Source: Candidatus Parcubacteria bacterium (lineage in GTDB: Bacteria; Patescibacteriota; Minisyncoccia; Phycocordibacterales; UBA6065). From it: a stretch of 64,000 nt of DNA. The translations under genes were made by a program, and so were the position numbers. Numbering within the stretch: the first letter of the stretch is position 1; every line of letters begins with the position of its first letter. The notes under the pieces were generated by a model. The model worked only from the letters and a program-made list of their open reading frames with translations, ran no database searches and was not told the origin of the DNA. The stretch lies in NCBI GenBank assembly GCA_039796155.1, contig JBDKKJ010000007.1:58409-122408 (forward strand). Reading direction: 5' to 3'. Positions 47,029 to 59,469 of this stretch are shown one piece after another.

Positions 47029-47032
47029 AACA

Positions 47033-47060
47033 AAAAAACCGCCTTCTGGCGGTTTTTTGT
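47033..47060 (+). terminator. Intrinsic terminator of infC-rpmI-rplT
   Basis: AAAAAACCGCC-ttct-GGCGGTTTTTT. Confidence 0.8.
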
Positions 47061-47076
47061 TTCCATATATGTTCCA

Positions 47077-47106
47077 TAAAAAAGGCGGCGCACGAAGTGC
47101 GCCGCC
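47077..47106 (-). terminator. Intrinsic terminator of the 47114 gene
   Basis: Minus strand GGCGGCGCAC-ttc-GTGCGCCGCC + TTTTTTT. Confidence 0.75.
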
Positions 47107-47113
47107 AAACTAA

Positions 47114-48070
47114 TCACAACGTTAGAGGTGAAAGATCTAAACCCAGCCACTGATACACCAACACTTTTCCTTCAATCCCCTTTCCTCGCATTTCACAGAG
47201 TTTAAATCCAATAGTGAGGATGACATTGTTAGCCAGCATAGCCCGTGGAGCCTCTGTATTTTCACAATCAAACATCCTATACAGCAGACTTTTTTCCTCG
47301 GGTGTAATCGAGGTAATGACCACATCAAATCTGGACTCAGTCTTGTTGCGGTCAATGATTTTCTGTAACAGGGTGTAATACGCACCTTCGGTCAGGTGAT
47401 TCAGGATGAAACCCGCGAACTCATGCATTGCGACTTCCTCAGCCAACATCTCCTTTTCACCATCCTTGAATCGGCCATCTTCATTATTATGTCTGATGGA
47501 GTGTCCGAGTTCGTGGAACATGACCGCAACCAATAACTTTTCAGGAACAGTGAATGCCGGAAGTGAAATGGTATTCGCCTCAACGTGCCACATCGGGCTG
47601 TATTGCAAATGTTTACTTGCCACATCTTCTGGAATGAAACACAATCCAATCGCCTTTCCGGTTGGTGCCGTAGGAACATCATTCACATTCATGAAACGAT
47701 AGCCGTTATTAACAAAAGCACCCGCCCGAATATCACTGAACCGTTCGACAATCCTTCTTGTCTCAGGTGAGATGTCTTTGTGCTTACGAAGCAAACCCAT
47801 CACATAATTGGCTTTTTGCTGAAGTAGGTTATGCATCTCCAAGCTGGCAGACGGATTCGAGCGCATCCACCATCCATCAACCGCCCTACTGCGTCTGACC
47901 TCAATTACGGTAAAGTCCTGATAGTCTTTCACAGCTTGCTCCTTCTTTTGTCTAACACTCTTTTTATGCACAAGGTAGCCAGAGGCCAACACACATGCAA
48001 TCACGAACAGGGCAGCTATAAGCCAACCCGAGAAGCCGCGCTTTTTAGTGCGGTTAGGTATAGATTTCAT
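47114..48070 (-). CDS. Membrane-anchored hypothetical protein with HExxH motif (putative metallopeptidase)
   Basis: 318 aa; N-terminal TM (WLIAALFVIACVLASGYLV); VAVMFHELGHSIRH zinc-binding-like motif. No family recognised. Confidence 0.5.
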   Translation of the reverse strand: MKSIPNRTKKRGFSGWLIAALFVIACVLASGYLVHKKSVRQKKEQAVKDYQDFTVIEVRRSRAVDGWWMRSNPSASLEMHNLLQQKANYVMGLLRKHKDISPETRRIVERFSDIRAGAFVNNGYRFMNVNDVPTAPTGKAIGLCFIPEDVASKHLQYSPMWHVEANTISLPAFTVPEKLLVAVMFHELGHSIRHNNEDGRFKDGEKEMLAEEVAMHEFAGFILNHLTEGAYYTLLQKIIDRNKTESRFDVVITSITPEEKSLLYRMFDCENTEAPRAMLANNVILTIGFKLCEMRGKGIEGKVLVYQWLGLDLSPLTL

Positions 48071-48124
48071 AGGTAAAATGTCGGTATTCGTGTGACGAAC
48101 AACGAAGCCTACAATAACATATTA

Positions 48125-49921
48125 TTATATGTTAGTCAAAATATGCATCTCGCTCATCGCACGCGTTAATGCCACATACATCAGATCTTTACCAATCTTC
48201 TCATCTTCTGCATTTTGATCTTCCGATAGTTTGTTGCTCTTGTCTTGAACAGCACCCTGCTCTGCTTGAATAATACAGGTGATATCAAATTCCACACCCT
48301 GTGTTTCAATCATGCGTGCGACTTTAATCAAAGTATTCTTCTCATATTCCTTTTTATAAAACTCCATATCTGTTACATCGGCAAATATGAGACCAATCAT
48401 TTTACATTCACTTCCTTTAATAAGATCTGAAACATATGTGCGTGCATCTTCGATTCTCAGTGATAATTCTTTAACGGTCGGACCATCTTTTATTCCCTCA
48501 GGGATTTCTACGCTGTACCCTAGCTCGCGAATGTACTCCAAAATCTGACGAGTGTTTCGGTAGACTTTATGTAACCTCACATTACGGTCCGTGGGTACCA
48601 CCTCATTGATTTCCTCCCACGATCGGATGGTCCCACGGTACACCTGTTGAGCCATGTCACCCACAAATACCGCGGATTGGGTTTCTTCAGAAAGACAGCT
48701 CTTTAGGATAGCCAACTGCTCTGGCATGTAGTTTTGAAATTCATCGATAATCATGAGCGAGTACTGGACTGGAATAGTTCTTCGTATAGGTGAATACTTT
48801 CCATTTTTATACGACTGGTAGTTTCGAACTATCTTTACGCCCTTCTCTGTTTTATGAAGTGACTTCATGAGAATTGCGAGATCAATACGATCTAATATCC
48901 CAGACTTCTTCTGCTCAGACCATAGTAATGCGTGTGCGGGCGAGAGTTTCTTATACACCTGATCGAGATATGTTGAGTGATCTCTGTTCCATTTTGGTAA
49001 AAGTGTGCTTCGCAAAATGCGTAGTTTTTCGTATTCGTATGTTTCACCTCCATCTCCGCTCAGAATAAGTGAAGAAACGTATGTAACATTCTTAAGATCC
49101 AATATTTCCTCGGCCCATTCGAAAAAGGTAGTTATCTTTACCCCATTAATACCAAGCTCGGGTAGTAGGTGTGAGAAGTAATCTTTGGTTCCATTATCTT
49201 GAACAAAAACAATTACTGAATTGTCGTGATATAAATGGGCGCTATCCGGTGACTGAATCAAATAAGCTACACGGTGAAGAGCAAGCGTTGTTTTTCCTGA
49301 TCCAGCAGGTCCAGATATCACAAAGGATCCTTTGTGATGAGCGCGGATGACAGCATCTTGAGCCTTCTCCATAAGTGAAACAATTTCAGGCAACATAAAG
49401 CCCGATTTGCGTGAAGCCCAATGCTCTTGATGGATGAGTTCACGTGGTGAATCAGTTGCTTCGGTAGCAAAAAACATAATCTTCCCGTCGACAATCATGT
49501 ATTGCTCTTTTTTTACCATCAACGCTTCTTCGATGGAACCATTAGGTAGTTTATACGTAACCTTACCTGGGGTTTCGAATCTTACAGATGATACTGGTGC
49601 CACCCATGAATAGATTCCCTCTTCAATAAAAGAATGCTTCGCAAAATAGAGCGACCTTTGCTTACCTGTCTTCTTATAGACAAGGTCACACTTTACAAAA
49701 AATGGTGAGCCAAAGAGGCGCGACAGCTCCACTAGACGTTCCTCGGTATACGCACGCAGATTCAAGTAGACCATACGGTCGTCGTTCTCAAGCGCTTTGA
49801 TTTGCGAACCTGTCTTTGTGGCCAAACCTTTGATGCGACCCTTTTCAACCTCGATTTTACTTTGCACGTCAGCAATCTTCGACGTCAGACCGACCATTAA
49901 GACTGATTTATCTTGCTTCAT
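48125..49921 (-). CDS. helD: HelD-like (helicase IV / UvrD-superfamily) protein
   Basis: 598 aa; N-terminal FGSPFFVKCDL...YFAKHSF...YSWVAPVSSVRFE resembles the HelD N-domain (PYFGRIDF...W.AP); Walker A GPAGSGKTT; C-terminal LMYVALTRA. Confidence 0.65.
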   Translation of the reverse strand: MKQDKSVLMVGLTSKIADVQSKIEVEKGRIKGLATKTGSQIKALENDDRMVYLNLRAYTEERLVELSRLFGSPFFVKCDLVYKKTGKQRSLYFAKHSFIEEGIYSWVAPVSSVRFETPGKVTYKLPNGSIEEALMVKKEQYMIVDGKIMFFATEATDSPRELIHQEHWASRKSGFMLPEIVSLMEKAQDAVIRAHHKGSFVISGPAGSGKTTLALHRVAYLIQSPDSAHLYHDNSVIVFVQDNGTKDYFSHLLPELGINGVKITTFFEWAEEILDLKNVTYVSSLILSGDGGETYEYEKLRILRSTLLPKWNRDHSTYLDQVYKKLSPAHALLWSEQKKSGILDRIDLAILMKSLHKTEKGVKIVRNYQSYKNGKYSPIRRTIPVQYSLMIIDEFQNYMPEQLAILKSCLSEETQSAVFVGDMAQQVYRGTIRSWEEINEVVPTDRNVRLHKVYRNTRQILEYIRELGYSVEIPEGIKDGPTVKELSLRIEDARTYVSDLIKGSECKMIGLIFADVTDMEFYKKEYEKNTLIKVARMIETQGVEFDITCIIQAEQGAVQDKSNKLSEDQNAEDEKIGKDLMYVALTRAMSEMHILTNI

Positions 49922-49961
49922 ATAATTGTTTGATTATACCTACATTCCTTATTTCTCCCTA

Positions 49962-49992
49962 TAAAAAGCAAAAACCGCCATTTCTGGCGGTT
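49962..49992 (-). terminator. Intrinsic terminator downstream of the MBL gene
   Basis: Minus strand AACCGCCA-gaaa-TGGCGGTT + TTTGCTTTTT. Confidence 0.65.
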
Positions 49993-50082
49993 CTAGCTAA
50001 CAAGAGCTGCTCCCTTGAGGGATTTTTTAAATAATGCTCTATGTTTATATTTCATAGGTAAAGATATTTATACCACAGGCGA

Positions 50083-51456
50083 TTACAAAAGCAAATACTC
50101 TTTATTTTTCTCCGCTACGATAGCATCTATCCCCACTTCAGAACGAATGCGTTGCGCGAGGAATGAAGAAGACTTTGTCTCCCCCATGGCCACGAATATC
50201 TGCTTCATTTTAGGAGCGGTGTGTGTCACGAATTCAACAAGGTGATTAGAATCTTTATGTGAAGAATATCCAGTGATGTTTTCAATGTGTGCCCGAACCT
50301 TTACCTTTTCGCCTTCAATTACAAGATTTGAAACCCTCTCCTGAATCTTGCGGCCGAGACTTCCTGGAACCTGATATCCCACCACAAGTACTGTTGCGTT
50401 AGGGTCTTCGAGATAGAATCGCTCATGGCCGAGAACGCGACCCCCAACAGACATTCCAGAACCAGCGATAATAATCTTCGGACCTTTCATAGTATGAATT
50501 GCTCGGGATTCTTCAGGATTGCGAACCATGCGCATGCCGGGAAAATCAAATATGTCGTCACCTCCTGCAATAATACCCTGTACCTTCTGATTAAAGTCTT
50601 CAATGTGCTGTTTATAAATCTCTGTTACTTTGCTACCAAGAGGCGCATCTACAAATACAGGCACACTCGGCAACTCTTTCTTTTCAACCAAGTTATTTAC
50701 TTCATAAAGCAGCACCTGAGTTCGTTCAAGAGAAAATGCTGGAATAACAACAGTTCCGCCTCGTTCGAGTGTAGTCAGCAAGACTTCTTTGAGTTTCGCA
50801 TCGCGTTCGTCTTTAGGTTCATGGTTTCGATCGCCATACACGCTTTCAATGACCATGTAATCTGCGTCAGTAACGTATTCAGTGTCACGTAGAAGCGGCG
50901 TCGGTGAGTTTCCAAGGTCACCCGTGAAAGCAATCTTTCTTTGCCCCTCTTCACCCGTGAGTGTCATTTCAATAATGCATGAGCCGAGTACATGTCCCGC
51001 ATCTTTAAGATAGAAAGAAATACTTTTTGAAATCACCTGATTCTCGTGATATGGAACTGTTTTCCAGAGAGCCATCGCCTGAGCAATGTGAACTTTTTCA
51101 TACAAAGGTTCATACCCAACATTTTTTGCTTCACGAGCAAGGAGCGCCTGTGCATCATCGAGCATCACTTCAGCCAACTCTTTTGTTTCTGATGTTGAAT
51201 AGATTGTTCCCGCAAAACCTTCTTTAACTAGCTTTGGAATTCGGCCAATGTGATCCATGTGAGGATGGGTAATCAAAAGATATGAAATCTCTTCGGGCGC
51301 ATAGATAAATGCATCACGATTCTCCAAAGATTGCTCACGTGAGCCCTGAACAAGCCCACAGTCAACAAGAATTTTCATTTCGGGAGTCTTTAATAAAAAG
51401 TTCGCACCTGTCGCATTCCCTATTGCCCCGCAACCAGTCAGTGTATAGCCTTTCAT
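50083..51456 (-). CDS. Beta-CASP metallo-beta-lactamase-fold RNA/DNA nuclease (CPSF73/RNase J-related)
   Basis: 457 aa; HPHMDH motif, DAGHVLGS, beta-CASP motifs (ESVYGDR, ...GYSSHKD). Confidence 0.8.
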   Translation of the reverse strand: MKGYTLTGCGAIGNATGANFLLKTPEMKILVDCGLVQGSREQSLENRDAFIYAPEEISYLLITHPHMDHIGRIPKLVKEGFAGTIYSTSETKELAEVMLDDAQALLAREAKNVGYEPLYEKVHIAQAMALWKTVPYHENQVISKSISFYLKDAGHVLGSCIIEMTLTGEEGQRKIAFTGDLGNSPTPLLRDTEYVTDADYMVIESVYGDRNHEPKDERDAKLKEVLLTTLERGGTVVIPAFSLERTQVLLYEVNNLVEKKELPSVPVFVDAPLGSKVTEIYKQHIEDFNQKVQGIIAGGDDIFDFPGMRMVRNPEESRAIHTMKGPKIIIAGSGMSVGGRVLGHERFYLEDPNATVLVVGYQVPGSLGRKIQERVSNLVIEGEKVKVRAHIENITGYSSHKDSNHLVEFVTHTAPKMKQIFVAMGETKSSSFLAQRIRSEVGIDAIVAEKNKEYLLL

Positions 51457-51459
51457 ATA

Positions 51460-51915
51460 TTAAAGATTATTCCGGATAGCCTTTTTATAAATTGCAGCCA
51501 CCACACTCGCACCTACAACATCCATGATCAAATCATGTGTCGTGTCCCAGGCATACCCAATATCATGGATGTTATTAAAGTGAAGGCCAATTTCCAAAAA
51601 TTCCCAGGCGATACCGACGGCGAGCGTCCAGAGAATAAGACTCTTTATGCTTATATATTTTTTAAAGAAAGTACCGTATTGAGTTGATACCGCCCACAAA
51701 CTAAAGAGTGCAACCCATGCACCGCCTAAAAAATGCATAGGAAAATCGTACCAATTCGTCAAATAATAAAAGTCTTTAAGCGTACCAAACCAGTGAAGGC
51801 TCACCACCAGAAGCATGACAATAAATGAGGGTATGAAGTATTTGTTCCAAAACATAAAATAAAGTATAGCATTGAAAAAACCTGCTTTCGCAGGTGTTCT
51901 CAGGGGGTCATTCAA
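51460..51915 (-). CDS. Polytopic membrane protein of unknown function
   Basis: 151 aa; 4 hydrophobic helices. True start may be an internal Met (MFWNKYF). Confidence 0.45.
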   Translation of the reverse strand: MNDPLRTPAKAGFFNAILYFMFWNKYFIPSFIVMLLVVSLHWFGTLKDFYYLTNWYDFPMHFLGGAWVALFSLWAVSTQYGTFFKKYISIKSLILWTLAVGIAWEFLEIGLHFNNIHDIGYAWDTTHDLIMDVVGASVVAAIYKKAIRNNL

Positions 51916-52255
51916 AATATTGTCCCTAGTATAAACTAGGTGGGTGACCGCAGATGTGATACCGAGGTATACACCGATATGAGTCTCCCTAAAAAAATGT
52001 TATAGAGTTAATATTTTGAATAACCCTACAGTCATTATAGTTCTCTCTCCTCCCTGTGCAACGGTGGATAACTTATACGAAACAGAAAAAATAAATCGTA
52101 AACTTTTTAGAATTTTTGATGGGGATAACTCCCGCTTGCCCGCTCTCAAAATACTGCTAGAGTTATCAGGTTAACGCTCTTTGAAGATACATGTCCTTCC
52201 CAGGATGATGTGTTTGGAGCACAACCACAATAGCTAGGTTCAGATACTCAGTCCC

Positions 52256-52777
52256 ATGAGAAACCTCCCACGCAAGTTCAGACTTGCATTGGCTGGCATG
52301 ATCGCAAGCCTGTTCAGTATCGGTCCGACACTTGCACTCGCAAGTCCGGCACCTGCCCCCAACAACAACGATCCCGGAAAAGCAGTCGCTACCGCCAACA
52401 TCGATCCGCAGATCACGGCCACGGCGCCCGAATACGTCACGAGCATGAAGGCGAACGCGCCCAACTGCTTTATTGACGTCTTTACGGCACCCGACACCAC
52501 GACCACGATTGCCACGACGACCGACCCGGCCAATATCAAGAAGGCACCGGCGGCCATCACGGCACGTTCCACGACGATGTTCAACGACACGAGCCAATTG
52601 CTCAAGGATCAAGGTGGGACCGCTCTCGTCACCAATACCGGCGTTGTTCAAAACCATCACGGCACTGCGATCGCCGGCGTGAATAATCACCACGGCACCA
52701 CCGCACCGCCAGGACAAGATACCGGCACATTCGTCGCGACCACCGCGAATACCGCGCAGCAACAGCAGGCGGGTTAA
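52256..52777 (+). CDS. Secreted low-complexity (T/A/P/N-rich) protein, first gene of GC-rich island
   Basis: 173 aa; signal peptide MRNLPRKFRLALAGMIASLFSIGPTLALA; repeated NHHGT. GC-rich third codon positions unlike neighbours. The opposite-strand 210-aa ORF is R/G-rich antisense noise. Confidence 0.5.
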   Translation: MRNLPRKFRLALAGMIASLFSIGPTLALASPAPAPNNNDPGKAVATANIDPQITATAPEYVTSMKANAPNCFIDVFTAPDTTTTIATTTDPANIKKAPAAITARSTTMFNDTSQLLKDQGGTALVTNTGVVQNHHGTAIAGVNNHHGTTAPPGQDTGTFVATTANTAQQQQAG

Positions 52778-52808
52778 CGCAGCCCTACCGATCCACAAGG
52801 ATCACTCG

Positions 52809-52834
52809 GCGCCCTCACAAGAGGGCACTTTTTT
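52809..52834 (+). terminator. Intrinsic terminator of island gene 1
   Basis: GCCCTC-acaa-GAGGGC + ACTTTTTT. Confidence 0.7.
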
Positions 52835-52839
52835 ATACC

Positions 52840-52867
52840 TTGACATCCATTAAACGTGTGCTAATGT
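52840..52867 (+). promoter_or_regulatory. Sigma70-like promoter of island gene 2
   Basis: TTGACA (52840-45), 16-nt spacer ending in TGC, TAATGT (52862-67). Confidence 0.5.
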
Positions 52868-53003
52868 CACAAATAGAACAACGCTCACGGGAGCGTTTTT
52901 ACATTGTAAAAAGGCAGAGGGACACAGTTTTTAGTGCTTTATGGAGCCTTAAAAGCTGTGTCTCTCCGATACGTCGGATGCGCAGCAAATACACAAAACA
53001 ACC

Positions 53004-53486
53004 ATGAAAAAGTTCCACACACCCCGTATCGTCATTGCCCTCATCATCACCGCCTGCCTCGGCTTCGCCGGCCTCCACGCCAACGAGACCACAAAGACCG
53101 CCCCCTCGAACACCAAGATCGATGTCGTCCAGCCGATCCAGTTCACCTTCCCCGAGAAGGTTTCTGACGGCACGGTGACGGTTCTCTCCCGCGACCTCCA
53201 GGTTCCGATGAGTAACACCCTCATGATCTCGATGAACATTCTCGCCGGCGTCGGCAAGGTCGACGCGGAAATGGTTGCGCGGTTCGCAAAACAGGGTTAC
53301 GTCCCTGCATCACCCGAGCAAGTGCTGTTGTTCAACCAAACCATCGTGAAAAGCCCAACCTCGACCAACCTGCAGGCACGGCTCGACATGGCCAGCAAGA
53401 CGATCGGCAAGCCGATCGACCAGATGATCATCGTGAAGACGCCGGCCGCCGGCCTCGTGATGAACGACGTCCCGCAGCGTAAATAG
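53004..53486 (+). CDS. Secreted hypothetical protein, island gene 2
   Basis: 160 aa; signal peptide MKKFHTPRIVIALIITACLGFAGLHA; GC-rich codons; no family recognised. Confidence 0.55.
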   Translation: MKKFHTPRIVIALIITACLGFAGLHANETTKTAPSNTKIDVVQPIQFTFPEKVSDGTVTVLSRDLQVPMSNTLMISMNILAGVGKVDAEMVARFAKQGYVPASPEQVLLFNQTIVKSPTSTNLQARLDMASKTIGKPIDQMIIVKTPAAGLVMNDVPQRK

Positions 53487-53506
53487 CTCCTCGGCTTCGG
53501 CCACCC

Positions 53507-53535
53507 GCCACACACTCATCTGTGTGGCTTTTTTA
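53507..53535 (+). terminator. Intrinsic terminator of island gene 2
   Basis: GCCACACA-ctcatc-TGTGTGGC + TTTTTT. Confidence 0.7.
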
Positions 53536-53559
53536 TTGTAAAAACATACTGCGGTTACA

Positions 53560-53587
53560 TTGACAAATGACTTAAAATATGTAGTAT
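53560..53587 (+). promoter_or_regulatory. Sigma70-like promoter of island gene 3
   Basis: TTGACA (53560-65), 16-nt spacer, TAGTAT (53582-87). Confidence 0.5.
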
Positions 53588-53638
53588 CGATAAGGACGGT
53601 TCCTCGTCAACGAACAGTTTTCAACCCAACATAACAGC

Positions 53639-54514
53639 ATGAAAACCAACATATCGGTCCTCGGGCTCATTATGAGCCTTTGCCTTGCAGTGTCTGCATT
53701 TGCGGATACCAAGATCATCAATCTATCGACGCGCGGAGAAGTCGGCGTCGGTAGCAAAGTCCTCATCACGGGTTTCGTGATCACTGGAAATCAACCAAAA
53801 CAAGTCATGATTCGGGGCGTAGGTCCCGGTCTGGCGCCATATGGGGTGACGAAGTTCATCACTGCCCCACGACTAACCCTGGTTGATAGCAACCAGAAAG
53901 AAATCACGAGTGTGACTGGTTGGGACGGCCTTCCCGCCACCCGACTGATTGCGCTCAACGCAGGTGCCTTTGCGCTCTTGCCTGGTAGTAAGGATTGCGT
54001 CATCGTCACAACCCTGCAACCCGGGCTTTACACAGCAGTCATGTCGTCGACAGATACCGCTACGGGCACTGGCCTCATTGAAGTCTACGACGTATCAAAA
54101 AATCCGGGCAGTCGACTCATCAATGAGTCAGCGCGCGTCGTTGGAGATGGCAGCACCATCATCACCGGCGCGGCATTCGAAGGCCTGGGCAAGAAAAAGG
54201 TGTATATCCGCGCCGTCGGACCCGCCCTCGGAGCCCTCGGTGTCACCGAACCAATGGCGAACCCCTCGATCTCAGTGTATAACGGTCGAGGCGTCCTCAT
54301 TGCCAATAACAATAGCTGGCAGACGAGCGGTTTGACAGCACAGTTGCAAGCTCAGACCGGCATGTTCCCCCTCGGAAACGACACCCTGTCAGCAGGTCTC
54401 GTTCTCGAGGTGGACGTCGACGGTCCGACCAGCCTCACCATCCACGTGATTGGTGGTTCACCTGATAAACCCGACACAGGAACAGTCCTTGTCGAAATTT
54501 ACGAAGCTCCTTAG
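53639..54514 (+). CDS. Secreted protein with two tandem copies of a ~130-aa beta-rich domain, island gene 3
   Basis: 291 aa; signal peptide ...LAVSAFA. Repeat 1 is INLSTRGEVGVGSKVLITGFVITGNQPKQVMIRGVGPGLAPYGV. Repeat 2 is LINESARVVGDGSTIITGAAFEGLGKKKVYIRAVGPALGALGV. Confidence 0.6.
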   Translation: MKTNISVLGLIMSLCLAVSAFADTKIINLSTRGEVGVGSKVLITGFVITGNQPKQVMIRGVGPGLAPYGVTKFITAPRLTLVDSNQKEITSVTGWDGLPATRLIALNAGAFALLPGSKDCVIVTTLQPGLYTAVMSSTDTATGTGLIEVYDVSKNPGSRLINESARVVGDGSTIITGAAFEGLGKKKVYIRAVGPALGALGVTEPMANPSISVYNGRGVLIANNNSWQTSGLTAQLQAQTGMFPLGNDTLSAGLVLEVDVDGPTSLTIHVIGGSPDKPDTGTVLVEIYEAP

Positions 54515-54528
54515 AAGCAAGGCCAAGA

Positions 54529-54562
54529 GCCAGGTTCGCAACGCGAACCTGGCCCTTTTTTA
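54529..54562 (+). terminator. Intrinsic terminator of island gene 3
   Basis: GCCAGGTTCGC-aac-GCGAACCTGGC + CCTTTTTT; core GGTTCGC/GCGAACC is shared with the terminator at 28734. Confidence 0.8.
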
Positions 54563-54564
54563 TT

Positions 54565-54640
54565 GAAAATAATGAGCGCATGGCGAATATATTTTCAATA
54601 TCTCCCTTGGAGATATTTTACCCTCCCCTGGAGATATTCT
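54565..54640 (+). repeat. Intergenic repeat copy B plus an extra half-repeat
   Basis: GAAAATAATGAGC..AATATATTTTCAATATCTCCCTTGGAGATAT, then a second related hairpin CCCTCC-cct-GGAGAT. Partner of 42535-42585. Confidence 0.7.
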
Positions 54641-55247
54641 ACTCCTCCCTCCCATCCATATTCACGTCGTACAAAATCTTTTCTTGGATGTGACGATAGT
54701 CAATCAATTCATCTTTTTTAAACCAGTGTGGAATCTCCTGTTCAGCTTCTGCAGGAGAACCCGAAGCATGAATAAGGTTTCGTACAGACCGAGTATCAAT
54801 ATCTGACATCTGGTATGAATCCAACACAAAATCTCCGCGGATAGTTCCCACGTCAGATGAAAGAGGCTCAGTAGAACCAATTATTTTTCGTACAATTGCT
54901 ACAGCATGCGCACCTTCAACAACAAAGGCCACAACAGGTCCACTCGTCATGTACTTGCGAAGCTTTCCAAGAACTATATCAGCAACTTTAATTGGATCGT
55001 TCCCTGCTGGGTGCATCTCGCCTTTAACTGTATATGCTTTGATGGACTTTTCGCCCACATTCTTTTTCCAAAGAGGGTCAAGTGTATAGTGTGCTTCAAT
55101 AAAATCAGCACTTGGTGTAAGCATCTTCATAGCAACAACCTTTAGACCAATTCGTTCGAATCGTCCAAGAATTTCACCAATAAGAGATCTTTGCACTCCG
55201 TCCGGCTTTATAACTGCAAGTGTTCGTTCTTTCTTTGGATGCTGCAT
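54639..55247 (-). CDS. ndk: Nucleoside diphosphate kinase (long form with insertion)
   Basis: 202 aa; TLAVIKPDGVQRSLIGEILGRFE, catalytic-His region NLIHASGS; about 50 aa longer than usual NDKs. Confidence 0.85.
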   Translation of the reverse strand: MQHPKKERTLAVIKPDGVQRSLIGEILGRFERIGLKVVAMKMLTPSADFIEAHYTLDPLWKKNVGEKSIKAYTVKGEMHPAGNDPIKVADIVLGKLRKYMTSGPVVAFVVEGAHAVAIVRKIIGSTEPLSSDVGTIRGDFVLDSYQMSDIDTRSVRNLIHASGSPAEAEQEIPHWFKKDELIDYRHIQEKILYDVNMDGREE

Positions 55248-55257
55248 GTGTGAAAAA

Positions 55258-56028
55258 TTATTGAGTAAGAACTTCGCAACCTTTCTCTGTGATCACTATC
55301 GTATGTTCAAAATGTGCACTGCGCTTTCCGTCTTTGGTTCGGTAGGTATACCCATCCTTATCAAGACGAATCTTTTCAGTACCTTCGTTAATGATTGGTT
55401 CAATGGCAATCACCATTCCAGGGATCAATGGATCACCCTCGCCTGCAATGCCGTAATTTGGCACATAGGGGTCTTCATGGACTTTGTAGCCAACACCGTG
55501 CCCAGCGAGCTCCTCGACGATTCCATAGCCCATAGGGCCTATATAGAGCTCTATAGCTTCGCCAATATGACCTGTGGTATTTCCACCCTTTGCAGCTGCA
55601 ATTCCGAGGCTGAGGGCGTGTTTGGTAGCCCTCAAAAGCTCTGTTGCCTCGGCATCTATTTTACCTACAGGCAAAGTCGTTGCCATGTCGGTAATGAGAC
55701 CTTTATGAACCAAACCAAGGTCGAGAGTCACAATATCACCCTCTTTGAGAATGTAGGGTGTTTCATTCGGAATACCGTGCACAACCGCATCGTTTACCGA
55801 CACACAAAGTGATGCAGGAAACGGTCGCTTTGCACCGTACGGTTTGTAATTAAGAAAAGCGGCAGTATCTCCCCCTTCAGCAATGAGTCGTGCTGCTTCA
55901 GCATCGATTGCTTTGGTTGTGACACCCGGAGCAACCATTTTAGAAAGTTCGTTCAAGATAAAAGCGTGACGCTTACCGCCTTCACGTAATATTTCTATGT
56001 CTTCTCTTGTTTTAAGTTTAATGGCCAT
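55258..56028 (-). CDS. map: Methionine aminopeptidase type I
   Basis: 256 aa; VVHGIP, DIVTLDLG, GHGVG, IEP, FEHT metal-ligand motifs. Confidence 0.92.
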   Translation of the reverse strand: MAIKLKTREDIEILREGGKRHAFILNELSKMVAPGVTTKAIDAEAARLIAEGGDTAAFLNYKPYGAKRPFPASLCVSVNDAVVHGIPNETPYILKEGDIVTLDLGLVHKGLITDMATTLPVGKIDAEATELLRATKHALSLGIAAAKGGNTTGHIGEAIELYIGPMGYGIVEELAGHGVGYKVHEDPYVPNYGIAGEGDPLIPGMVIAIEPIINEGTEKIRLDKDGYTYRTKDGKRSAHFEHTIVITEKGCEVLTQ

Positions 56029-56624
56029 TAGAGTTCAAGCGCCTTCATAATGTCAGCATGCACTTTCTCGGCTGCCTGATGCCCATTAACAGAAATAAAG
56101 TTAACATTTGGGCTTTTCTCAAAGTATCGCACTGAGTGAATGATATCAGTTTCAAATGCACGGAGGCGCTCCGCAATCTTTTCATCTTTATCATCATGAC
56201 GTCCACGCTTCAAGAGTCGTGACTTTACCTCAGGCACGGGCACATCAAGAAAAATAACGTTTGGTTTTTGCTTGCTGTACAGCTGCATAGCAGAATCAAG
56301 AATCGGAGCCTCTTCAGGTCGTCGTGCAACACCATCAAAAATAATGTGCTCACTTCCCGTGTATTCATCAATCAAAAATCCCGTCCACACCCAAATAGGA
56401 ATAAAGGCGCCAAGAAGCTTTCCCTGACCCAATGTCTCTTTAACAATGGCAGCGCTGTAGCTACTGCCAGTCATGAATTTTCGGAGACGTTCACCTGTCT
56501 CAACATAAATAGACTTAAGAGAAGGGTCTGCCTTTTTAAGTGCCTCCATGAGCATAGTCGCCTGGGTACCTTTACCAGCTCCCGCCCTACCGAAAAAGAC
56601 ACACGTAATTTGTTTCATATCCAT
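56028..56624 (-). CDS. adk: Adenylate kinase (short, no zinc lid)
   Basis: 198 aa; P-loop FGRAGAGKGTQ, FDGVARR; located between secY and map as usual. Confidence 0.85.
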   Translation of the reverse strand: MDMKQITCVFFGRAGAGKGTQATMLMEALKKADPSLKSIYVETGERLRKFMTGSSYSAAIVKETLGQGKLLGAFIPIWVWTGFLIDEYTGSEHIIFDGVARRPEEAPILDSAMQLYSKQKPNVIFLDVPVPEVKSRLLKRGRHDDKDEKIAERLRAFETDIIHSVRYFEKSPNVNFISVNGHQAAEKVHADIMKALEL

Positions 56625-56699
56625 AGTCTACCCGAATCACTGAAATAACAAAACCCTCCATAAAGGAGGGTTTTGTTTTCTTTAAAATCAGAGTGAGAT

Positions 56700-57971
56700 C
56701 TAGTACTCTCTCATCGAAAGCTGTGCGTCGAGCTTCTTTACGATATCGAGAACTACAGATACTACGATAAGGAGAGCCGTACCACCGATAGCAAGGGTTG
56801 TAATACCTGAAAGTGATCGGAGGATGAGTGGAAGCACTGCGATGAGACCAAGGAATGTTGCGCCCACAAGAGTGATGCGAGTAACAATCTTTGAGAGGTA
56901 TTCAGCAGTAGACTGTCCTGGTCGAACACCTGGAATGAACGCACCTGACTTCTGGAGGTTTTCCGAAATCATCATAGGATCGAACGTAACCGCAGTGTAG
57001 AAGTATGTGAATACGAATACAAGGAGGAAGTAGAACGAGTTATAGAAGAGATGATTGTTGATGAGTGAAAGACCAACAGATGAAACTTTGAGCAATACAG
57101 GGCTCGCTGATGTTGCAAAGAAGTTGAAAAGCATCTGAGGGAAAAGGAGAATTGAGAGAGCAAAGATGATCGGAATAACTCCAGCCTGATTGAGGCGCAA
57201 TGGAAGGTATGTTGATACTCCACCGTACACTTTCATTCCCCGCACCTGCTTTGCATAGGTAACTGGAATTGGTCGTTCTGCTTCAGTAACTACAACCACG
57301 GCATAGATAACGGCAAGAGCGAGAACAAACACACCAATGTATACAGGAAGCTGGCTTGGGTCGTATGAAGCAAGAGCACCTGAAATTCCCTTTGGAAGAC
57401 CGGCTACGATACCCGCAAAGATGATGAGGGATGTACCGTTACCCATACCGAATTCAGTAATGAGTTCACCAATCCACATAAGAAGCATAGAGCCCGCAGC
57501 AATGGTGAGTACGTTCAAGATGAGCGCCATTGTTGTGAGATCAGGAATGATTCCCTGTCGCTGGAAAATGATGATAAAGCTGAAAGCCTGGATCAAAGCG
57601 AGAGGTAAAGCAATGCGTCGTGAGTACTGCGCAAACTTTGCACGACCCGCTTCCCCTTCTTCTTGATACATTGCCTTCATTGTAGGAGACATGATTGTCA
57701 AAAGCTGCATGATGATAGATCCAGTAATGTATGGACCTACACCGAGCATAACGATTGAGAGATTAGAAAGTCCACCTCCAGAGAAGATGTTCAAAAGTCC
57801 AAGAAACTGACTGTTTGCAAAGAGGCTTGCAAGCTTTGCAGTATCAATACCTGGGATTGGAATTGTAGTGAGAAGTCGGAATACAACGAGAGCTAATACG
57901 ACGAAGAAAATCCTCTTTCGAAGGCTCTTGTCACGGAATGTGAGGGAAAGCTTGTTTAGAAATGCGTTCAT
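56700..57971 (-). CDS. secY: Preprotein translocase subunit SecY
   Basis: 423 aa; 10 TM; conserved FSGGGLSNLSIVMLGVGPYITGSII. Confidence 0.95.
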   Translation of the reverse strand: MNAFLNKLSLTFRDKSLRKRIFFVVLALVVFRLLTTIPIPGIDTAKLASLFANSQFLGLLNIFSGGGLSNLSIVMLGVGPYITGSIIMQLLTIMSPTMKAMYQEEGEAGRAKFAQYSRRIALPLALIQAFSFIIIFQRQGIIPDLTTMALILNVLTIAAGSMLLMWIGELITEFGMGNGTSLIIFAGIVAGLPKGISGALASYDPSQLPVYIGVFVLALAVIYAVVVVTEAERPIPVTYAKQVRGMKVYGGVSTYLPLRLNQAGVIPIIFALSILLFPQMLFNFFATSASPVLLKVSSVGLSLINNHLFYNSFYFLLVFVFTYFYTAVTFDPMMISENLQKSGAFIPGVRPGQSTAEYLSKIVTRITLVGATFLGLIAVLPLILRSLSGITTLAIGGTALLIVVSVVLDIVKKLDAQLSMREY

Positions 57972-58040
57972 ATCTGTAATATTAGCTCTTTAATAATCCT
58001 TGTAAATAACGAAACATCCCGTTGTGCGGGATGTTTGCGC

Positions 58041-58484
58041 TTAAGCGTGAACTGTACCGCCTGCCTTTTCTATTACCGCCTTTACTGATGCTGATACTTC
58101 TACACCTGAAACGATAACCTTCTTTGTAATCTCACCTGAGAGCAAGATCTTGATTCGTGGGAAGTTACCTTCTGTCTTTTCAATGAGACCCTTTGCAAAC
58201 AATGTTGCTGGTTCTACTCGGTCACCGTCCTTAAATACTTTGCTGAGTGCTGAAAGAGGTACAACAGTAGCTCGTTCTGCAAATGACTTGAAAGAGTTCT
58301 TTCCTCGTCCTCGCATCTTTGGCACCTTCTTAATAAAGTCTCGGAGCTCTGGGCGCTTCTTGTGACCAGAACGTGAGTCCTGTCCCTTTGTTCCTCGGCC
58401 TGATGTTTTACCGCGCTTTCCTCCGCGACCCACCTGGGCTGCTTTGTAATTTGGAGTCTTTCGCTTGAGATCGTGAAGTTTCAT
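58041..58484 (-). CDS. rplO: 50S ribosomal protein L15
   Basis: 147 aa; GRGGKRGKTSGRGTKGQ. Confidence 0.92.
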   Translation of the reverse strand: MKLHDLKRKTPNYKAAQVGRGGKRGKTSGRGTKGQDSRSGHKKRPELRDFIKKVPKMRGRGKNSFKSFAERATVVPLSALSKVFKDGDRVEPATLFAKGLIEKTEGNFPRIKILLSGEITKKVIVSGVEVSASVKAVIEKAGGTVHA

Positions 58485-58495
58485 ATATTTTAATA

Positions 58496-59113: not shown

Positions 59114-59121
59114 ATAATAAT

Positions 59122-59469
59122 TTAGAACTTAAGTCCGCCTTCTCGAGCGCCGTCTGCAAGAGCCTTAACTCGACCCTTGTATCCGAAGCCTCCTCGGTCA
59201 AAGACAACCGCTGTTATCTTGAGAGCGATAGCCTTCTTTGCAATGTCCTTTCCTACCGCAAGAGCCGCTTCTGACTTCTTTGTCTTTGCTTCAAGAGATG
59301 AAGCTGAGACAAGTGTCTTTGCATTCTCATCATCAATGAGCTGAGCATACATGAACTTGTTTGAACGAAATACCGCAAGTCGAGGCATAGATGCAGTACC
59401 CGCAATCTTTGTTCGGATCTTAACGTGTCGTCGTACTCGCTTTTCTTTTTTAATATTTGATATAGCCAT
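59122..59469 (-). CDS. rplR: 50S ribosomal protein L18
   Basis: 115 aa; [13 protein letters not shown]...[18 protein letters not shown]. Confidence 0.92.

What the first reader, a model, noticed from the sequence alone, without database searches (positions are those of the whole stretch)
52170..54565. Abrupt GC-rich island of three secreted proteins inside an AT-leaning core region (horizontal transfer or assembly chimera)
Between the membrane-protein gene ending at 51915 and ndk, composition switches visibly. Codons become G/C-ended (for example atc gcc ctc atc atc acc gcc tgc ctc ggc ttc gcc), and antisense frames become long R/G-rich ORFs, which is typical of high-GC DNA. The island carries three plus-strand genes. 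Each has a signal peptide, its own hairpin terminator and, for genes 2 and 3, TTGACA-N16-TAxxxT promoters. I saw no integrase, transposase or flanking direct repeat. Both flanks are host-like, and the right junction is followed by a repeat shared with 42.5 kb. This argues for true insertion rather than contig mis-joining. For an episymbiotic lineage, surface proteins captured from a high-GC organism could relate to host interaction, but that is speculative.
Basis: partly seen in the sequence, partly recalled or inferred. Interest (0 to 1): 0.6.

Follow-up and report, generated by a model that had tools for sequence, protein, structure and literature searches.

The report
Variable GC-rich secreted-protein gene slot
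The GC-rich stretch is real chromosomal DNA, not an assembly error. It is a fixed "slot" next to ndk in one clade of tiny Parcubacteria-type bacteria, holding fast-changing, compositionally foreign genes for secreted, probably surface-binding, proteins.

Summary
Observation confirmed. Window 52.2-54.55 kb has GC 0.55 against 0.434±0.014 elsewhere (z=8). It holds three + strand ORFs with GC3 of 0.68, 0.83 and 0.60 against a host value of 0.39±0.05, and each ORF has a terminator.

A chimera is excluded. Four other assemblies from other sequencing runs span both junctions at 99.96-100% identity.

It is not a one-off insertion. The same site, between ndk and a conserved small RNA gene, holds a homologue of gene 3 in every sampled member of one Paceibacteria clade. 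Host GC in that clade runs from 0.43 to 0.615. The site is empty in the sister lineage and in all other relatives sampled.

The excess GC lies only in the ORFs. Spacers, promoters and a structured leader are host-like and conserved.

Gene 3 is a tandem beta-jelly-roll protein. Its family is common in high-GC bacteria, some of them named Verrucomicrobiota or Opitutaceae. Genes 1 and 2 are near-orphans, with one homologue each.

Coding parts turn over quickly:
- A sister lineage has an unrelated GC-rich core in gene 2.
- dN/dS reaches about 1.
- The gene-3 tree conflicts with the species tree.

Best reading (confidence 0.5): a clade-specific variable locus of the replacement-island type, repeatedly supplied with GC-rich coding DNA. 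High-GC relatives are the likely source. Why the ORFs stay GC-rich is not settled.

The parts
51460..51816 (-). Left host flank: DUF2238-type membrane protein, followed by the beta-CASP/metallo-beta-lactamase gene at 50083-51456.
   Evidence: JGI's Pfam label is PF09997, although my own Pfam scan of the longer 151-aa ORF gave no hit. The gene is syntenic in relatives. GC3 of the longer ORF (51460-51915) is 0.43, which is host-like.
51894..52042 (-). Conserved structured small RNA gene (unnamed) with its own TATAAT box. Its terminator lies at 51880-51895. This RNA is the true left neighbour of the island.
   Evidence: RNAalifold predicts 37 pairs, 23 with compensatory changes. Covariance model R1 finds 46 copies in ndk-anchored loci, always just downstream of ndk on the ndk strand. 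No Rfam family matches; the only hit is to 6S at E=3.1, 16 bits against a gathering score of 46.
52043..52255 (+). Spacer upstream of gene 1, with host-like GC (0.42). It holds the -35 region of the small RNA promoter and presumably the gene-1 promoter. Part of it is conserved only in island-bearing genomes.
   Evidence: Alignment A2, columns 1-100. GC. The stretch is 74% identical to L178.
52256..52777 (+). Gene 1: a 173-aa secreted, Thr/Ala/Pro/Asn-rich, low-complexity protein, with GC3 0.68. It is a near-orphan.
   Evidence: ORF and translation. The 5.8-billion-protein search returned only itself. The one homologue is in L178: 183 aa, 50% identity over aligned columns, GC3 0.83. WIN against L178 gives dN/dS 0.47.
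52811..52826 (+). Terminator of gene 1.
   Evidence: GCCCTCACAAGAGGGC followed by a T-run.
52840..53003 (+). Gene-2 promoter (TTGACA-N16-TAATGT) and a structured leader of about 125 nt with three hairpins. The first hairpin looks like a terminator.
   Evidence: Sequence. The leader is about 88-90% conserved with L178, while the coding region is only 61% identical.
53004..53486 (+). Gene 2: a 160-aa secreted or lipoprotein-like near-orphan, with GC3 0.83. Its mature part is an exchangeable core lying between a conserved signal peptide and a conserved C-terminal ...QRK.
   Evidence: The word-index search returned only itself. The exhaustive HMMER search gave one credible homologue, P0138, at 42% identity. 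In L010 only the first 70 nt (93% identical) and the last ~30 nt are homologous. The cores, 365 nt against 683 nt, are unrelated by blastn, tblastx and hhalign. WIN against L178 gives dN/dS of about 1.1. The AF2 single-sequence model is unusable (pLDDT 38).
53507..53528 (+). Terminator of gene 2.
53560..53587 (+). Gene-3 promoter, TTGACA-N16-TAGTAT. The surrounding motif ACATTGACAA...TATGTA(A/G)TATC is conserved upstream of the gene-3 homologues in all five genomes compared.
   Evidence: Scan. Alignment A3 of WIN, L010, L011, L013 and L096.
53639..54514 (+). Gene 3, the anchor gene: a 291-aa secreted protein made of two tandem beta-jelly-roll (beta-sandwich) repeats, with GC3 0.60.
   Evidence: 410 homologues were found. 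The AF2 model has pLDDT 88.7 and pTM 0.85. The top PDB match is the ColG tandem collagen-binding domains, E 5e-9 but TM only 0.26. Syntenic homologues occur in L010, L097, L011, L012, L013 and L096. Against L010, dS is 0.71, similar to the flanks, and dN/dS is 0.12.
54529..54553 (+). Terminator of gene 3, an 11-bp stem.
54555..54643 (.). Host-type intergenic repeat. It contains the palindrome ATATCTCCCTTGGAGATAT (54598-54616) and a second degenerate copy (54623-54643). It lies between the convergent 3' ends of gene 3 and ndk.
   Evidence: The same element lies at 42524-42583, behind the stop of the minus-strand ZIP gene, and in the gene 1-gene 2 spacer of L178.
54639..55247 (-). Right host flank: ndk, the last gene of the run of ribosomal-protein genes followed by secY-adk-map-ndk.
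   Evidence: Pfam PF00334, E 2.5e-37. GC3 is 0.335.

Best explanation
The GC-rich stretch is a genuine, clade-specific variable locus of the replacement-island type. It is neither a mobile island nor a mis-join.

**Where it sits.** In one clade of Paceibacteria (Parcubacteria, near 'Kaiserbacteria') a slot lies between the 3' end of ndk and a conserved small RNA gene. It holds one to three separately transcribed genes for secreted proteins.

**The anchor gene.** Gene 3 is a tandem beta-jelly-roll, binding-type protein. Its family is otherwise abundant in high-GC bacteria, some of them named Verrucomicrobiota or Opitutaceae. It entered the slot at or near the base of the clade.

**Scaffold versus coding parts.** Promoters, a structured leader, signal-peptide codons and terminators form a conserved scaffold with host-like composition. 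The coding parts change quickly in two ways:
- fast protein evolution, with dN/dS of 0.12 to about 1;
- replacement of coding segments by recombination within the conserved ends.

**Why it is GC-rich.** The incoming DNA is GC-rich (GC3 0.83-0.95). It most plausibly comes from high-GC members of the same clade that carry the same slot. This is why low-GC members such as this one show a GC island limited to the ORFs.

**Likely role.** The products are probably variable surface or secreted proteins used in attachment to, or recognition of, the host cell.

**Shown:** reality of the locus, its position, its distribution, conservation of the scaffold, turnover of the cores, and the foreign codon usage.

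**Inferred:** the recombination mechanism, the identity of the donors, and the function.
For: **The locus is real**
- Five assemblies of different runs carry gene 3 beside ndk; two besides the JGI contig span both junctions.

**Fixed site, with a clade-limited distribution**
- tblastn of island and flank proteins was run on 160 ndk-anchored loci. Gene-3 homologues lie at this site only in the WIN group (L010, L097), L013/L098, L011/L012 and L096.
- These genomes form a clade with 100% NJ bootstrap on 1573 columns of five proteins.
- The sister L099 has only about 390 bp between ndk and DUF2238. Every more distant locus in which both flanks were found lacks a homologue as well.

**Orthologous scaffold**
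- The gene-3 promoter motif is conserved in five genomes.
- The gene-2 leader is about 90% conserved between WIN and L178.
- Spacers have host-like GC.
- The host itself also lacks Shine-Dalgarno sites (5 of 47 genes), so the island's translation-start regions look native.

**Turnover of coding parts**
- L010 is closer to WIN than L178 is. L178 shares the WIN-type gene 2, yet L010 has an unrelated GC3-0.83 core with sharp breakpoints inside the ORF. The L010 core is therefore a derived replacement that arrived GC-rich.
- Accessory genes differ among species. L011's 183-aa protein and L013's 137-aa protein are not homologous to gene 1 or gene 2.

**The gene-3 tree conflicts with the species tree**
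- The gene-3 tree groups WIN with L011 (88%) and L013 with L096 (81%), and never WIN with L013 (0%).
- The species tree groups WIN with L013 (92%).
- Each low-GC species therefore pairs with a high-GC one.

**Composition**
- Third-position base composition of the island (A .15, C .43, G .25, T .16) nearly equals that of the high-GC relative L011 (.14.44.25.18).
- L096 host genes reach GC3 0.87-0.95, enough to supply cassettes of GC3 0.95.

**Signs of amelioration**
- WIN gene 2 has 18% A/T at four-fold sites, where L178 has 0%.

**Literature**
- In a set of aquifer (groundwater) MAGs, 83% of inferred transfers into Patescibacteria came from other Patescibacteria (PMC12455944).
Against: **No donor allele has been found**
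- Genes 1 and 2 have only one homologue each in 5.8 billion (word index) and 1.84 billion (exhaustive search, gene 2 only) proteins.
- The nearest high-GC relative of gene 3 is only about 40% identical.
- L011 and L096 have no homologues of gene 1 or gene 2.

**Gene 3 has co-diverged with its flanks**
- Since the WIN-L010 split, its dS is 0.71 against 0.5-0.98 for the flanks.

**No detectable decay of GC in gene 3**
- Polarised substitutions show no net GC-to-AT drift.
- At third positions there were 20 S>W and 21 W>S changes, against an expected ratio of about 2.35 to 1.
- My normal-approximation estimate gives p of about 0.002. Parsimony with a distant outgroup could bias this.
- This fits a force that maintains GC better than a recent import does.

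**Weak points in the trees**
- Monophyly of the Patescibacteria gene-3 sequences has only 34% bootstrap.
- All trees are neighbour-joining trees on small data sets.
Confidence: 0.5

Rival explanations
1. Vertical locus with actively maintained high GC. The genes have sat in the slot since the base of the clade. A force specific to these coding regions keeps their GC3 above the genomic equilibrium, with no further import. The force could be selection on synonymous sites, for example for mRNA structure or stability or for deliberately rare codons. It could also be GC-biased gene conversion tied to frequent recombination.
For: - Every ORF in the slot is GC-rich in every low-GC lineage, whether or not the ORFs are homologous.
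- Gene-3 alleles are so diverged (34-42% amino-acid identity; WIN-L011 dS about 3) that synonymous sites should have equilibrated. Yet GC3 stays at 0.53-0.60 against a host value of 0.35-0.39.
- S>W and W>S changes are balanced on recent branches.
- Across hosts, gene-3 GC3 is damped toward about 0.7: 0.53-0.60 in low-GC hosts, 0.77 in L011 and 0.82 in L096, where it is below the host value.
- No donors were found.
Against: - It does not explain the unrelated gene-2 core in L010 or the non-homologous accessory genes. These must have come from somewhere, and they are GC-rich.
- A mutational force or gene conversion should also raise GC in the spacers, and it does not.
- The host's translationally preferred codons, seen in ribosomal-protein genes, are A/T-ending at four-fold sites. 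This is the opposite of the island's usage.
- No known mechanism gives a GC3 shift of +0.2 to +0.55 for a few genes.
Confidence: 0.22
2. A single horizontal transfer of the whole 2.4-kb block from an unrelated high-GC organism (for example Verrucomicrobiota), followed only by vertical descent and slow amelioration. This is essentially the first reader's view.
For: - The composition and codon usage are foreign.
- The gene-3 family is large outside the Patescibacteria. Two members are named Verrucomicrobiota and Opitutaceae, and two sit on GC-rich (0.64-0.68) contigs whose neighbouring genes are unlike those of Patescibacteria.
- GC3 is graded: gene 3 at 0.60 is below gene 1 at 0.68 and gene 2 at 0.83, as partial amelioration would predict.
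Against: - The locus is shared by species whose housekeeping proteins are only 70-74% identical, with gene 3 at 34-42% identity. Amelioration would have finished long ago.
- Genes 1 and 2 have no homologues outside the WIN/L178 group.
- The three genes have different ages and distributions.
- The spacers are host-like and conserved.
- The gene-2 core was replaced in L010.
Confidence: 0.12
3. Assembly chimera or bin contamination: a fragment of a high-GC genome mis-joined into a Parcubacteria contig.
For: Only the abrupt change in composition.
Against: - The same junctions appear at 99.96-100% identity in assemblies of four other sequencing runs made by a different pipeline.
- The same architecture is present in six further, diverged genomes.
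- The GC-rich ORFs are separated by host-like spacers that carry conserved promoters.
Confidence: 0.01
4. Extreme codon bias from very high expression, that is, translational selection on major surface proteins, rather than foreign origin.
For: - Gene 3's shift is mostly toward C-ending codons.
- Ribosomal-protein genes also prefer C over T in two-fold families, 0.70 against 0.41.
- The RSCU correlation of gene 3 with ribosomal-protein genes is 0.46, against 0.20 with the bulk host genes.
Against: - At four-fold sites the ribosomal-protein genes prefer A/T (A .41, T .37, G .04). The island genes use C/G (C .40-.55, G .21-.30).
- Genes 1 and 2 correlate at 0.03-0.16 with ribosomal-protein genes and at 0.45-0.75 with high-GC genomes.
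Confidence: 0.03

Closest known systems
Replacement-type flexible genomic islands or islets: fixed chromosomal sites that hold divergent, compositionally atypical surface-structure genes. Examples are O-antigen and capsule loci and pilin-variation loci. (From general knowledge, not tested here.)
   Same: - A fixed position between conserved core genes, with no integrase.
- Compositionally deviant content and highly divergent or non-homologous alleles among close relatives.
- Products that are exported.
- Exchange presumably by homologous recombination in conserved flanks.
   Different: - This locus is tiny: 1-3 monocistronic genes.
- The deviation is toward higher GC, and only inside the ORFs.
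- One breakpoint pair lies inside an ORF, between the signal peptide and the C-terminus.
- The locus is present in hosts whose own GC ranges from 0.43 to 0.615.
- The products are proteins of unknown function, not glycan-synthesis enzymes.
Genomic islands and individually transferred genes reported in groundwater Patescibacteria (PMC12455944).
   Same: - The recipient is a Patescibacteria genome.
- Detection is by compositional deviation.
- That study infers that most donors are other Patescibacteria.
   Different: - That paper reports islands of 2.7-45 kb found with IslandViewer, together with metabolic genes.
- As far as I read, it does not describe a fixed slot with conserved regulatory scaffolding and swapped coding cores.
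DVUA0089 family (NCBIfam NF038127), and the beta-sandwich pre-peptidase C-terminal / collagen-binding domains of clostridial collagenase ColG (PDB 5iku).
   Same: - Gene 3 is predicted with high confidence as two tandem beta-jelly-roll domains.
- ColG's tandem collagen-binding domains are the top PDB match (E 5e-9).
- The syntenic homologue in L011 passes the NF038127 cut-off (31.4 bits against 29).
   Different: - Window gene 3 itself gives no NF038127, Pfam or PDB sequence hit.
- TM-scores are low (0.26), so only the domain type is shared, not the arrangement.
- No catalytic or anchoring domain is attached.
Hypervariable Ig-domain gene module of Thermococcales (PMC8416519; title and abstract only).
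   Same: A locus built around a hypervariable beta-sandwich-type protein, with varying partner genes. It is interpreted as involved in conflict or self/non-self recognition.
   Different: - It is archaeal.
- Its proteins are large and multi-domain.
- I know of no reported GC anomaly there.
- There is no sequence relationship.

Membership tests
Mobile genomic island (integrative element) | An integrase, recombinase or transposase gene in or beside the segment. | tested here: not met
   The three island ORFs and the two immediately flanking ORFs I scanned (the 151-aa DUF2238 ORF and ndk) have no such Pfam domain. JGI's Pfam labels for genes within 10 kb show none.
Mobile genomic island (integrative element) | Insertion at a tRNA or tmRNA gene, with flanking direct repeats. 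| tested here: not met
   The nearest tRNA or tmRNA genes are at 39.4 kb and 36.0 kb. No direct repeat brackets 52.1-54.6 kb.
Mobile genomic island (integrative element) | Composition that deviates from the host genome. | tested here: met
   GC z=8.3, tetranucleotide z=12.6, GC3 z=4.2-8.8.
Mobile genomic island (integrative element) | Sporadic presence or absence among close relatives. | tested here: not met
   The slot is occupied in every sampled member of the clade and empty in the sister lineage and all more distant relatives sampled.
Replacement-type flexible island (variable locus at a fixed site) | The same chromosomal position in different genomes, bounded by conserved core genes. | tested here: met
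   The locus lies between ndk and the small RNA/DUF2238/beta-CASP genes in WIN, L011/L012, L013 and L096. The partial contigs L010 and L097 show the ndk side, and L178 shows the small-RNA side.
Replacement-type flexible island (variable locus at a fixed site) | Non-homologous or highly divergent content among relatives. | tested here: met
   - Gene-3 homologues are 34-42% identical, while housekeeping proteins are 70-74% identical.
- The gene-2 core is unrelated in L010.
- The accessory genes are unrelated to one another.
Replacement-type flexible island (variable locus at a fixed site) | Exchange by homologous recombination, seen as gene trees that conflict with the species tree or as recombination breakpoints. 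| tested here: inconclusive
   The gene-3 NJ tree conflicts with the species tree (88% and 81% against 92% bootstrap). Sharp breakpoints lie inside gene 2. No donor allele or population-level recombinant was observed.
DVUA0089 family (NCBIfam NF038127), for gene 3 | HMM score at or above the curated cut-off of 29 bits. | tested here: not met
   - Window gene 3 gives no hit at E<=1.
- The syntenic L011 homologue scores 31.4 bits and passes.
- The L013 homologue scores 21.7 bits and fails.
- The L096 homologue gives no hit.
Collagen-binding / pre-peptidase C-terminal beta-sandwich fold, for gene 3 | Structural superposition of the domains. | tested here: inconclusive
   Foldseek's top hit is 5iku at E 5e-9, but TM is 0.26 and rmsd 17 A over the tandem. 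Double-jelly-roll capsid proteins score similarly. The domains were not searched singly.
6S RNA (Rfam RF00013), for the flanking small RNA | Covariance-model score at or above the gathering score of 46.4 bits. | tested here: not met
   The score is 16.1 bits, E=3.1, and the match is partial. The 12 other loci scanned whole gave no 6S hit; 11 of them carry a copy of the RNA.
Cassette-based antigenic variation (expression site plus silent copies) | Silent partial copies elsewhere in the same genome. | not testable with these tools
   The 64-kb window holds no paralogue of genes 1-3 or of the relatives' cassettes. The rest of the genome was not available.

The most novel reading that the evidence does not exclude
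The slot is a dedicated expression site for host-interaction proteins of an episymbiont. It has a conserved promoter, leader, signal peptide and terminator scaffold. GC-rich coding cassettes are swapped into it again and again, from high-GC relatives or from the host's phylum. Alternatively, a high-GC state is actively maintained there. On either version it works as a surface-variation or host-range system, and the ORF-restricted GC signature marks it across a clade whose own GC spans 0.43-0.615.
Probability: 0.2. Interest if true: 0.7.

Novelty: new member of a known kind. Interest (0 to 1): 0.4.

Why it matters
**What it settles.** A striking compositional island in a candidate-phyla-radiation (CPR) metagenome-assembled genome is real biology, not contamination. 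This matters for trust in such genomes.

**What it points to.** A small, easily recognised locus where ultra-small, probably episymbiotic bacteria diversify their secreted proteins. These proteins are candidates for attachment to, or recognition of, the partner cell. For Paceibacteria that partner is essentially unknown.

**The open question.** The ORFs stay GC-rich in low-GC genomes, while their promoters and spacers stay host-like. If recurrent import is the cause, the donors identify gene-flow partners. If selection is the cause, it is an unusual case of gene-specific base composition.

**Side result.** The work also turned up a widespread, unannotated structured RNA downstream of ndk.

Tried and rejected
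**Searches that gave nothing**
- Pfam and NCBIfam scans of the three proteins gave no significant family. The only hit was a chance-level NF047899 match for gene 2 (E 0.014, 15 bits against a cut-off of 280).
- Word-index searches for genes 1 and 2 returned only themselves.
- A PDB sequence search with the gene-3 profile gave nothing.
- The afdb50 fold library was unavailable.
- No silent cassettes were found within the window.

**Results set aside as uninformative**
- The exhaustive HMMER search for gene 2 gave two giant repeat proteins, P0137 and P0139. I read these as summed weak matches to low-complexity repeats, not homology.
- The AF2 model of gene 2 without an alignment has pLDDT 38 and is unusable.
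- hhalign of the gene-1 and gene-2 pairs against L011's 183-aa protein, L013's 137-aa protein and the L010 core showed no relationship beyond the signal peptide.
- The first bootstrap run timed out. I redid it with a faster NJ implementation.

**Ideas tested and rejected**
- Translational selection as the cause of the bias.
- Absence of a Shine-Dalgarno site as a foreign mark; the host lacks them too.
- 6S RNA identity for the flanking RNA.

**Tests that could not discriminate**
- The polarised-substitution test for amelioration in gene 3 showed no GC decay, but the numbers are small.
- Codon usage could not separate donors within the clade from Verrucomicrobiota-like donors.

Full report
**1.

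Sliding-window GC rises from about 0.40-0.43 to 0.52-0.60 between roughly 52.2 and 54.55 kb, then falls back. No other part of the 64-kb window does this.

All other 2.4-kb windows give 0.434±0.014 with a maximum of 0.467, so z=8.3. Its tetranucleotide profile is 12.6 sd from the rest.

Three + strand ORFs fill the interval:

| Gene | Coordinates | Length | GC3 |
|---|---|---|---|
| gene 1 | 52256-52777 | 173 aa | 0.68 |
| gene 2 | 53004-53486 | 160 aa | 0.83 |
| gene 3 | 53639-54514 | 291 aa | 0.60 |

The other 62 ORFs have GC3 of 0.394±0.050.

- Each of the three ORFs is followed by a terminator-like hairpin.
- The scan finds the gene-3 promoter. The gene-2 site is in the sequence but has a weak -10 box.
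- The repeat shared with 42.5 kb is real.

One refinement matters later. The GC excess is restricted to the ORFs. The four spacers have GC 0.39-0.465, indistinguishable from pooled host intergenic DNA at 0.421.

**2. It is not an assembly artefact**

The window is identical to JGI contig Ga0451722_0000036 (126 kb). Exact-protein look-ups also found contigs from four other sequencing runs, assembled by a different pipeline.

| Run | Contig size | Window span | Identity |
|---|---|---|---|
| SRR35181981 | 11.7 kb | 45942-57662 | 100% |
| SRR35626843 | 4.8 kb | 51788-56628 | 100% |
| SRR35626827 | 7.3 kb | 52018-59277 | 3 mismatches |
| SRR35626842 | 1.3 kb | 54213-55546 | 100% |

The first two span both junctions. 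Gene 3 is also deposited in NCBI as MEN9621985.1, from a 'Candidatus Parcubacteria bacterium' MAG.

**3. The organism and the site**

The right flank is ndk, which ends the run of ribosomal-protein genes followed by secY-adk-map-ndk. The left flank is a DUF2238-type membrane protein and a beta-CASP metallo-beta-lactamase.

I anchored scans of GTDB genomes and of metagenomes on ndk. They returned 160 loci of Paceibacteria/'Kaiserbacteria'-like Patescibacteria, with ndk 42-74% identical to the window's.

In nearly all loci where both flanks were found, ndk is followed within about 0.1-0.7 kb by DUF2238 and beta-CASP. A few have larger gaps, but none of those holds a homologue of the island genes.

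Between ndk and DUF2238 sits a conserved structured RNA of about 150 nt that I had not expected.
- It lies on the ndk strand and has its own TATAAT box and terminator.
- RNAalifold predicts 37 pairs, 23 of them with compensatory changes.
- A covariance model finds 46 copies, all in this position.
- Rfam has no family for it.

In the window this RNA is at 51894-52042 (-). The island is therefore a wedge between the stop of ndk and the promoter of this RNA.

**4. The slot is occupied throughout one clade**

Homologues of gene 3 occur at exactly this site in the following genomes.

| Locus | Relation to the window | Gene-3 identity | Host GC | GC of the slot genes |
|---|---|---|---|---|
| L010 | ndk 96% identical | 85% | flank-gene GC3 0.35-0.41 | gene 3 GC3 0.53 |
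| L097 | gene 3 and part of ndk only | 93% | not determined | gene 3 GC3 0.55 |
| L013 / L098 | ndk 73% identical | 34% | about 0.42 | island GC 0.52-0.60 |
| L011 / L012 | GCA_028866595 and GCA_028871755 | 37% | 0.556 | GC3 0.77-0.84 |
| L096 | Logan assembly | 37% | 0.615 | GC3 0.82 |

A neighbour-joining (NJ) tree of beta-CASP, ndk, map, adk and secY (1573 columns) gives these results:
- WIN, L013, L011 and L096 form one clade, with 100% bootstrap.
- Inside it, the two low-GC species pair together (92%) and the two high-GC species pair together (63%).
- L099 (GC 0.427) is the sister lineage (100%).

L099 has only about 390 bp between ndk and DUF2238. That stretch holds the small RNA, a lone ACATTGACA promoter-like motif and a bidirectional terminator.

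The simplest history is one gain on the stem of the clade.

**5. What the genes are**

*Gene 3* has 410 database relatives.
- Outside its own species group the best are only about 40% identical.
- Two relatives are named 'Verrucomicrobiota' and 'Opitutaceae'. Two others lie on GC-rich (0.64-0.68) contigs next to genes unlike those of Patescibacteria (DUF3999, DUF2339 and a 2416-aa PATR-repeat protein). Many relatives are fused to Ig, TonB, GH10 or other modules.
- No Pfam model covers it.
- NCBIfam NF038127 ('DVUA0089 family') passes its cut-off for the L011 homologue but gives no hit for window gene 3.
- An AlphaFold model built on 51 sequences is confident (pLDDT 88.7, pTM 0.85). It shows two tandem beta-jelly-roll domains.
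- The top PDB match is the tandem collagen-binding domain pair of ColG. Double-jelly-roll capsid proteins follow. TM-scores are low, at 0.26.
- I conclude only that gene 3 is a secreted, tandem beta-sandwich protein of the binding-module type.

*Genes 1 and 2* are near-orphans.
- Both returned only themselves in the word-index search.
- An exhaustive HMMER search with gene 2 gave one credible homologue, P0138.
- The contig carrying P0138 is L178. It reads: small RNA (99% identical to the window's), then a gene-1 homologue (50% identity over aligned columns, GC3 0.83), then a gene-2 homologue (41%, GC3 0.955). Its spacers again have low GC, 0.39-0.45.

**6. The scaffold is conserved and the coding parts are not**

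- The promoter region of gene 3 (ACATTGACAA...TATGTAATATC) aligns across WIN, L010, L011, L013 and L096, although the proteins are only 34-42% identical.
- The 125-nt leader of gene 2 folds into three hairpins. It is about 90% identical between WIN and L178, whereas the mature coding region is 61% identical.
- Between WIN and L010 the flanks are about 85% identical at the DNA level. Gene 2 is homologous only in its first 70 nt (93% identical, the signal peptide) and its last ~30 nt.
- The cores in between, 365 nt against 683 nt, are unrelated by blastn, tblastx and hhalign. Both have GC3 of about 0.83.
- L178, which is more distant, shares the WIN-type gene 2. The L010 core is therefore a derived replacement that arrived GC-rich.
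- The accessory genes of L011 (183 aa) and L013 (137 aa) are unrelated to genes 1 and 2.

Rates of protein evolution are high.

| Comparison | dS | dN/dS |
|---|---|---|
| gene 3, WIN-L010 | 0.71 | 0.12 |
| four flank genes, WIN-L010 | 0.5-0.98 | 0.02-0.03 |
| gene 1, WIN-L178 | 0.86 | 0.47 |
| gene 2, WIN-L178 | 0.46 | about 1.1 |

The gene-3 dS resembles that of the flanks, so the gene co-diverged with the chromosome over that period.

**7. Why are the ORFs GC-rich?**

Translational selection is excluded. Ribosomal-protein genes of this genome prefer A/T at four-fold sites (A .41, T .37, G .04). The island uses C/G instead (C .40-.55, G .21-.30).

Island codon usage is uncorrelated with the host (r=0.00). 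It matches high-GC genomes equally well, whether they are clade members (L011 0.73, L096 0.67) or the GC-rich contigs outside the Patescibacteria (0.69-0.77).

Points that favour recurrent import of GC-rich coding DNA:
- The L010 gene-2 core is a derived replacement.
- The accessory genes are not homologous among species.
- GC3 is graded and consistent with different ages: gene 3 at 0.60, gene 1 at 0.68, gene 2 at 0.83.
- WIN gene 2 has A/T at 18% of four-fold sites where L178 has none.
- In the gene-3 tree each low-GC species pairs with a high-GC one: WIN with L011 at 88%, L013 with L096 at 81%, and WIN with L013 at 0%. The species tree gives WIN with L013 at 92%.
- High-GC clade members carry the same slot and reach GC3 0.87-0.95, so they are plausible donors.
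- In a set of aquifer (groundwater) MAGs, 83% of inferred transfers into Patescibacteria came from other Patescibacteria (PMC12455944).
- Replacement with breakpoints inside the ORFs would also explain why the spacers stay host-like.

Points against it:
- No donor alleles were found for any of the three genes.
- Gene-3 alleles are so diverged (WIN-L011 dS about 3) that a one-time import should have equilibrated.
- On the WIN and L097 branches, polarised with L010, third-position changes in gene 3 are balanced. There were 20 S>W and 21 W>S, where decay toward the host's GC3 predicts about 2.35 to 1. The numbers are small and parsimony is imperfect.

These points keep alive a rival explanation: some coding-level force maintains high GC in situ. 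A mutational force or gene conversion is unlikely, because the spacers are not enriched.

I commit to recurrent cassette import at a fixed slot with confidence 0.5. I give the maintained-GC rival 0.22 and a single foreign block transfer 0.12.

**8. Comparison with what is known**

The locus behaves like a miniature replacement-type flexible island. It has a fixed position, no mobility genes, divergent or non-homologous content, and exported products.

It fails the tests for a mobile integrative island:
- no integrase;
- no tRNA target;
- no direct repeats;
- not sporadic among close relatives.

Window gene 3 resembles the DVUA0089 / pre-peptidase C-terminal / collagen-binding type of domain, but it does not pass the family threshold.

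The kind of thing is known. The unusual aspects are these:
- the GC signature is restricted to the ORFs;
- it persists across hosts of very different GC;
- the regulatory scaffold is conserved;
- one breakpoint pair lies inside an ORF.

**9. Verdict**

- The function, variable secreted or surface binding proteins possibly for host contact, is an inference.
- Interest is moderate.

Noticed in passing
window 51880-52042 (-); also L099 6726-6875, L013 12746-12893, L011 8850-8998, L096 7628-7777 and about 40 other loci: An unannotated structured RNA of about 150 nt with its own TATAAT box and intrinsic terminator. It always lies just downstream of ndk and upstream of DUF2238/beta-CASP in Paceibacteria. 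RNAalifold predicts 37 pairs, 23 with compensatory changes, and the covariance model finds 46 copies. No Rfam family matches; the 6S hit is at chance level. It could be a new small RNA or a leader for the DUF2238/beta-CASP genes.
   Followed up: partly
window 52870-53003 (+); L178 1005-1138: The 5' leader of gene 2 (about 125 nt) is about 90% conserved between WIN and L178, although the coding region is only 61% identical. It folds into three hairpins. The first (52880-52897) is followed by a T-run like an attenuator. It may be a regulatory leader.
   Followed up: partly
window 42524-42583 and 54555-54643; L178 903-959: An intergenic element of about 60 nt containing the palindrome ATATCTCCCTTGGAGATAT. 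In the window it lies behind the stop codons of two minus-strand genes (ZIP transporter and ndk), each facing a + strand terminator. In L178 it lies between the homologues of genes 1 and 2. Its role is unknown: a terminator module, a protein-binding site or a small repeat element.
   Followed up: partly
window 60987-61379 (-): A PemK/MazF-type toxin gene (JGI's Pfam label is PF02452) sits inside the ribosomal-protein gene run between rplE and rpsH. Its GC of 0.356 is the lowest among the ORFs tabulated. In relatives such as L011 this interval holds rpsN (S14) instead.
   Followed up: no
L099 6600-6720: The empty site of the sister lineage contains an ACATTGACA motif, the same extended -35 as the island promoters. 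It points at a bidirectional terminator with nothing to transcribe. It is either a remnant of a lost cassette or a pre-existing landing pad.
   Followed up: no
L011, L096 compared with window, L013, L099: Genomic GC ranges from 0.43 to 0.615 (GC3 from 0.38 to 0.9) within a clade whose housekeeping proteins are 70-74% identical. The two high-GC and the two low-GC species each pair up in the species tree. This is a large and apparently single GC shift inside a narrow Patescibacteria clade.
   Followed up: partly
window 41655-42488 (+): A + strand gene for a 277-aa membrane protein with histidine-box motifs (HxxHH, HxxxH). From those motifs I take it to be fatty-acid hydroxylase/desaturase-like. 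Its GC3 is somewhat raised (0.46), and it is followed by the same terminator-plus-repeat arrangement as gene 3.
   Followed up: no
window 39389-41547: A tmRNA gene (39389-39781) lies next to what looks like a sortase gene (39843-40424; identified by eye, not scanned) and a 377-aa secreted Thr/Ser/Gly-rich protein (40414-41547). The latter has ordinary host GC3 (0.365). Secreted proteins in this genome are therefore not GC-rich as a rule.
   Followed up: no
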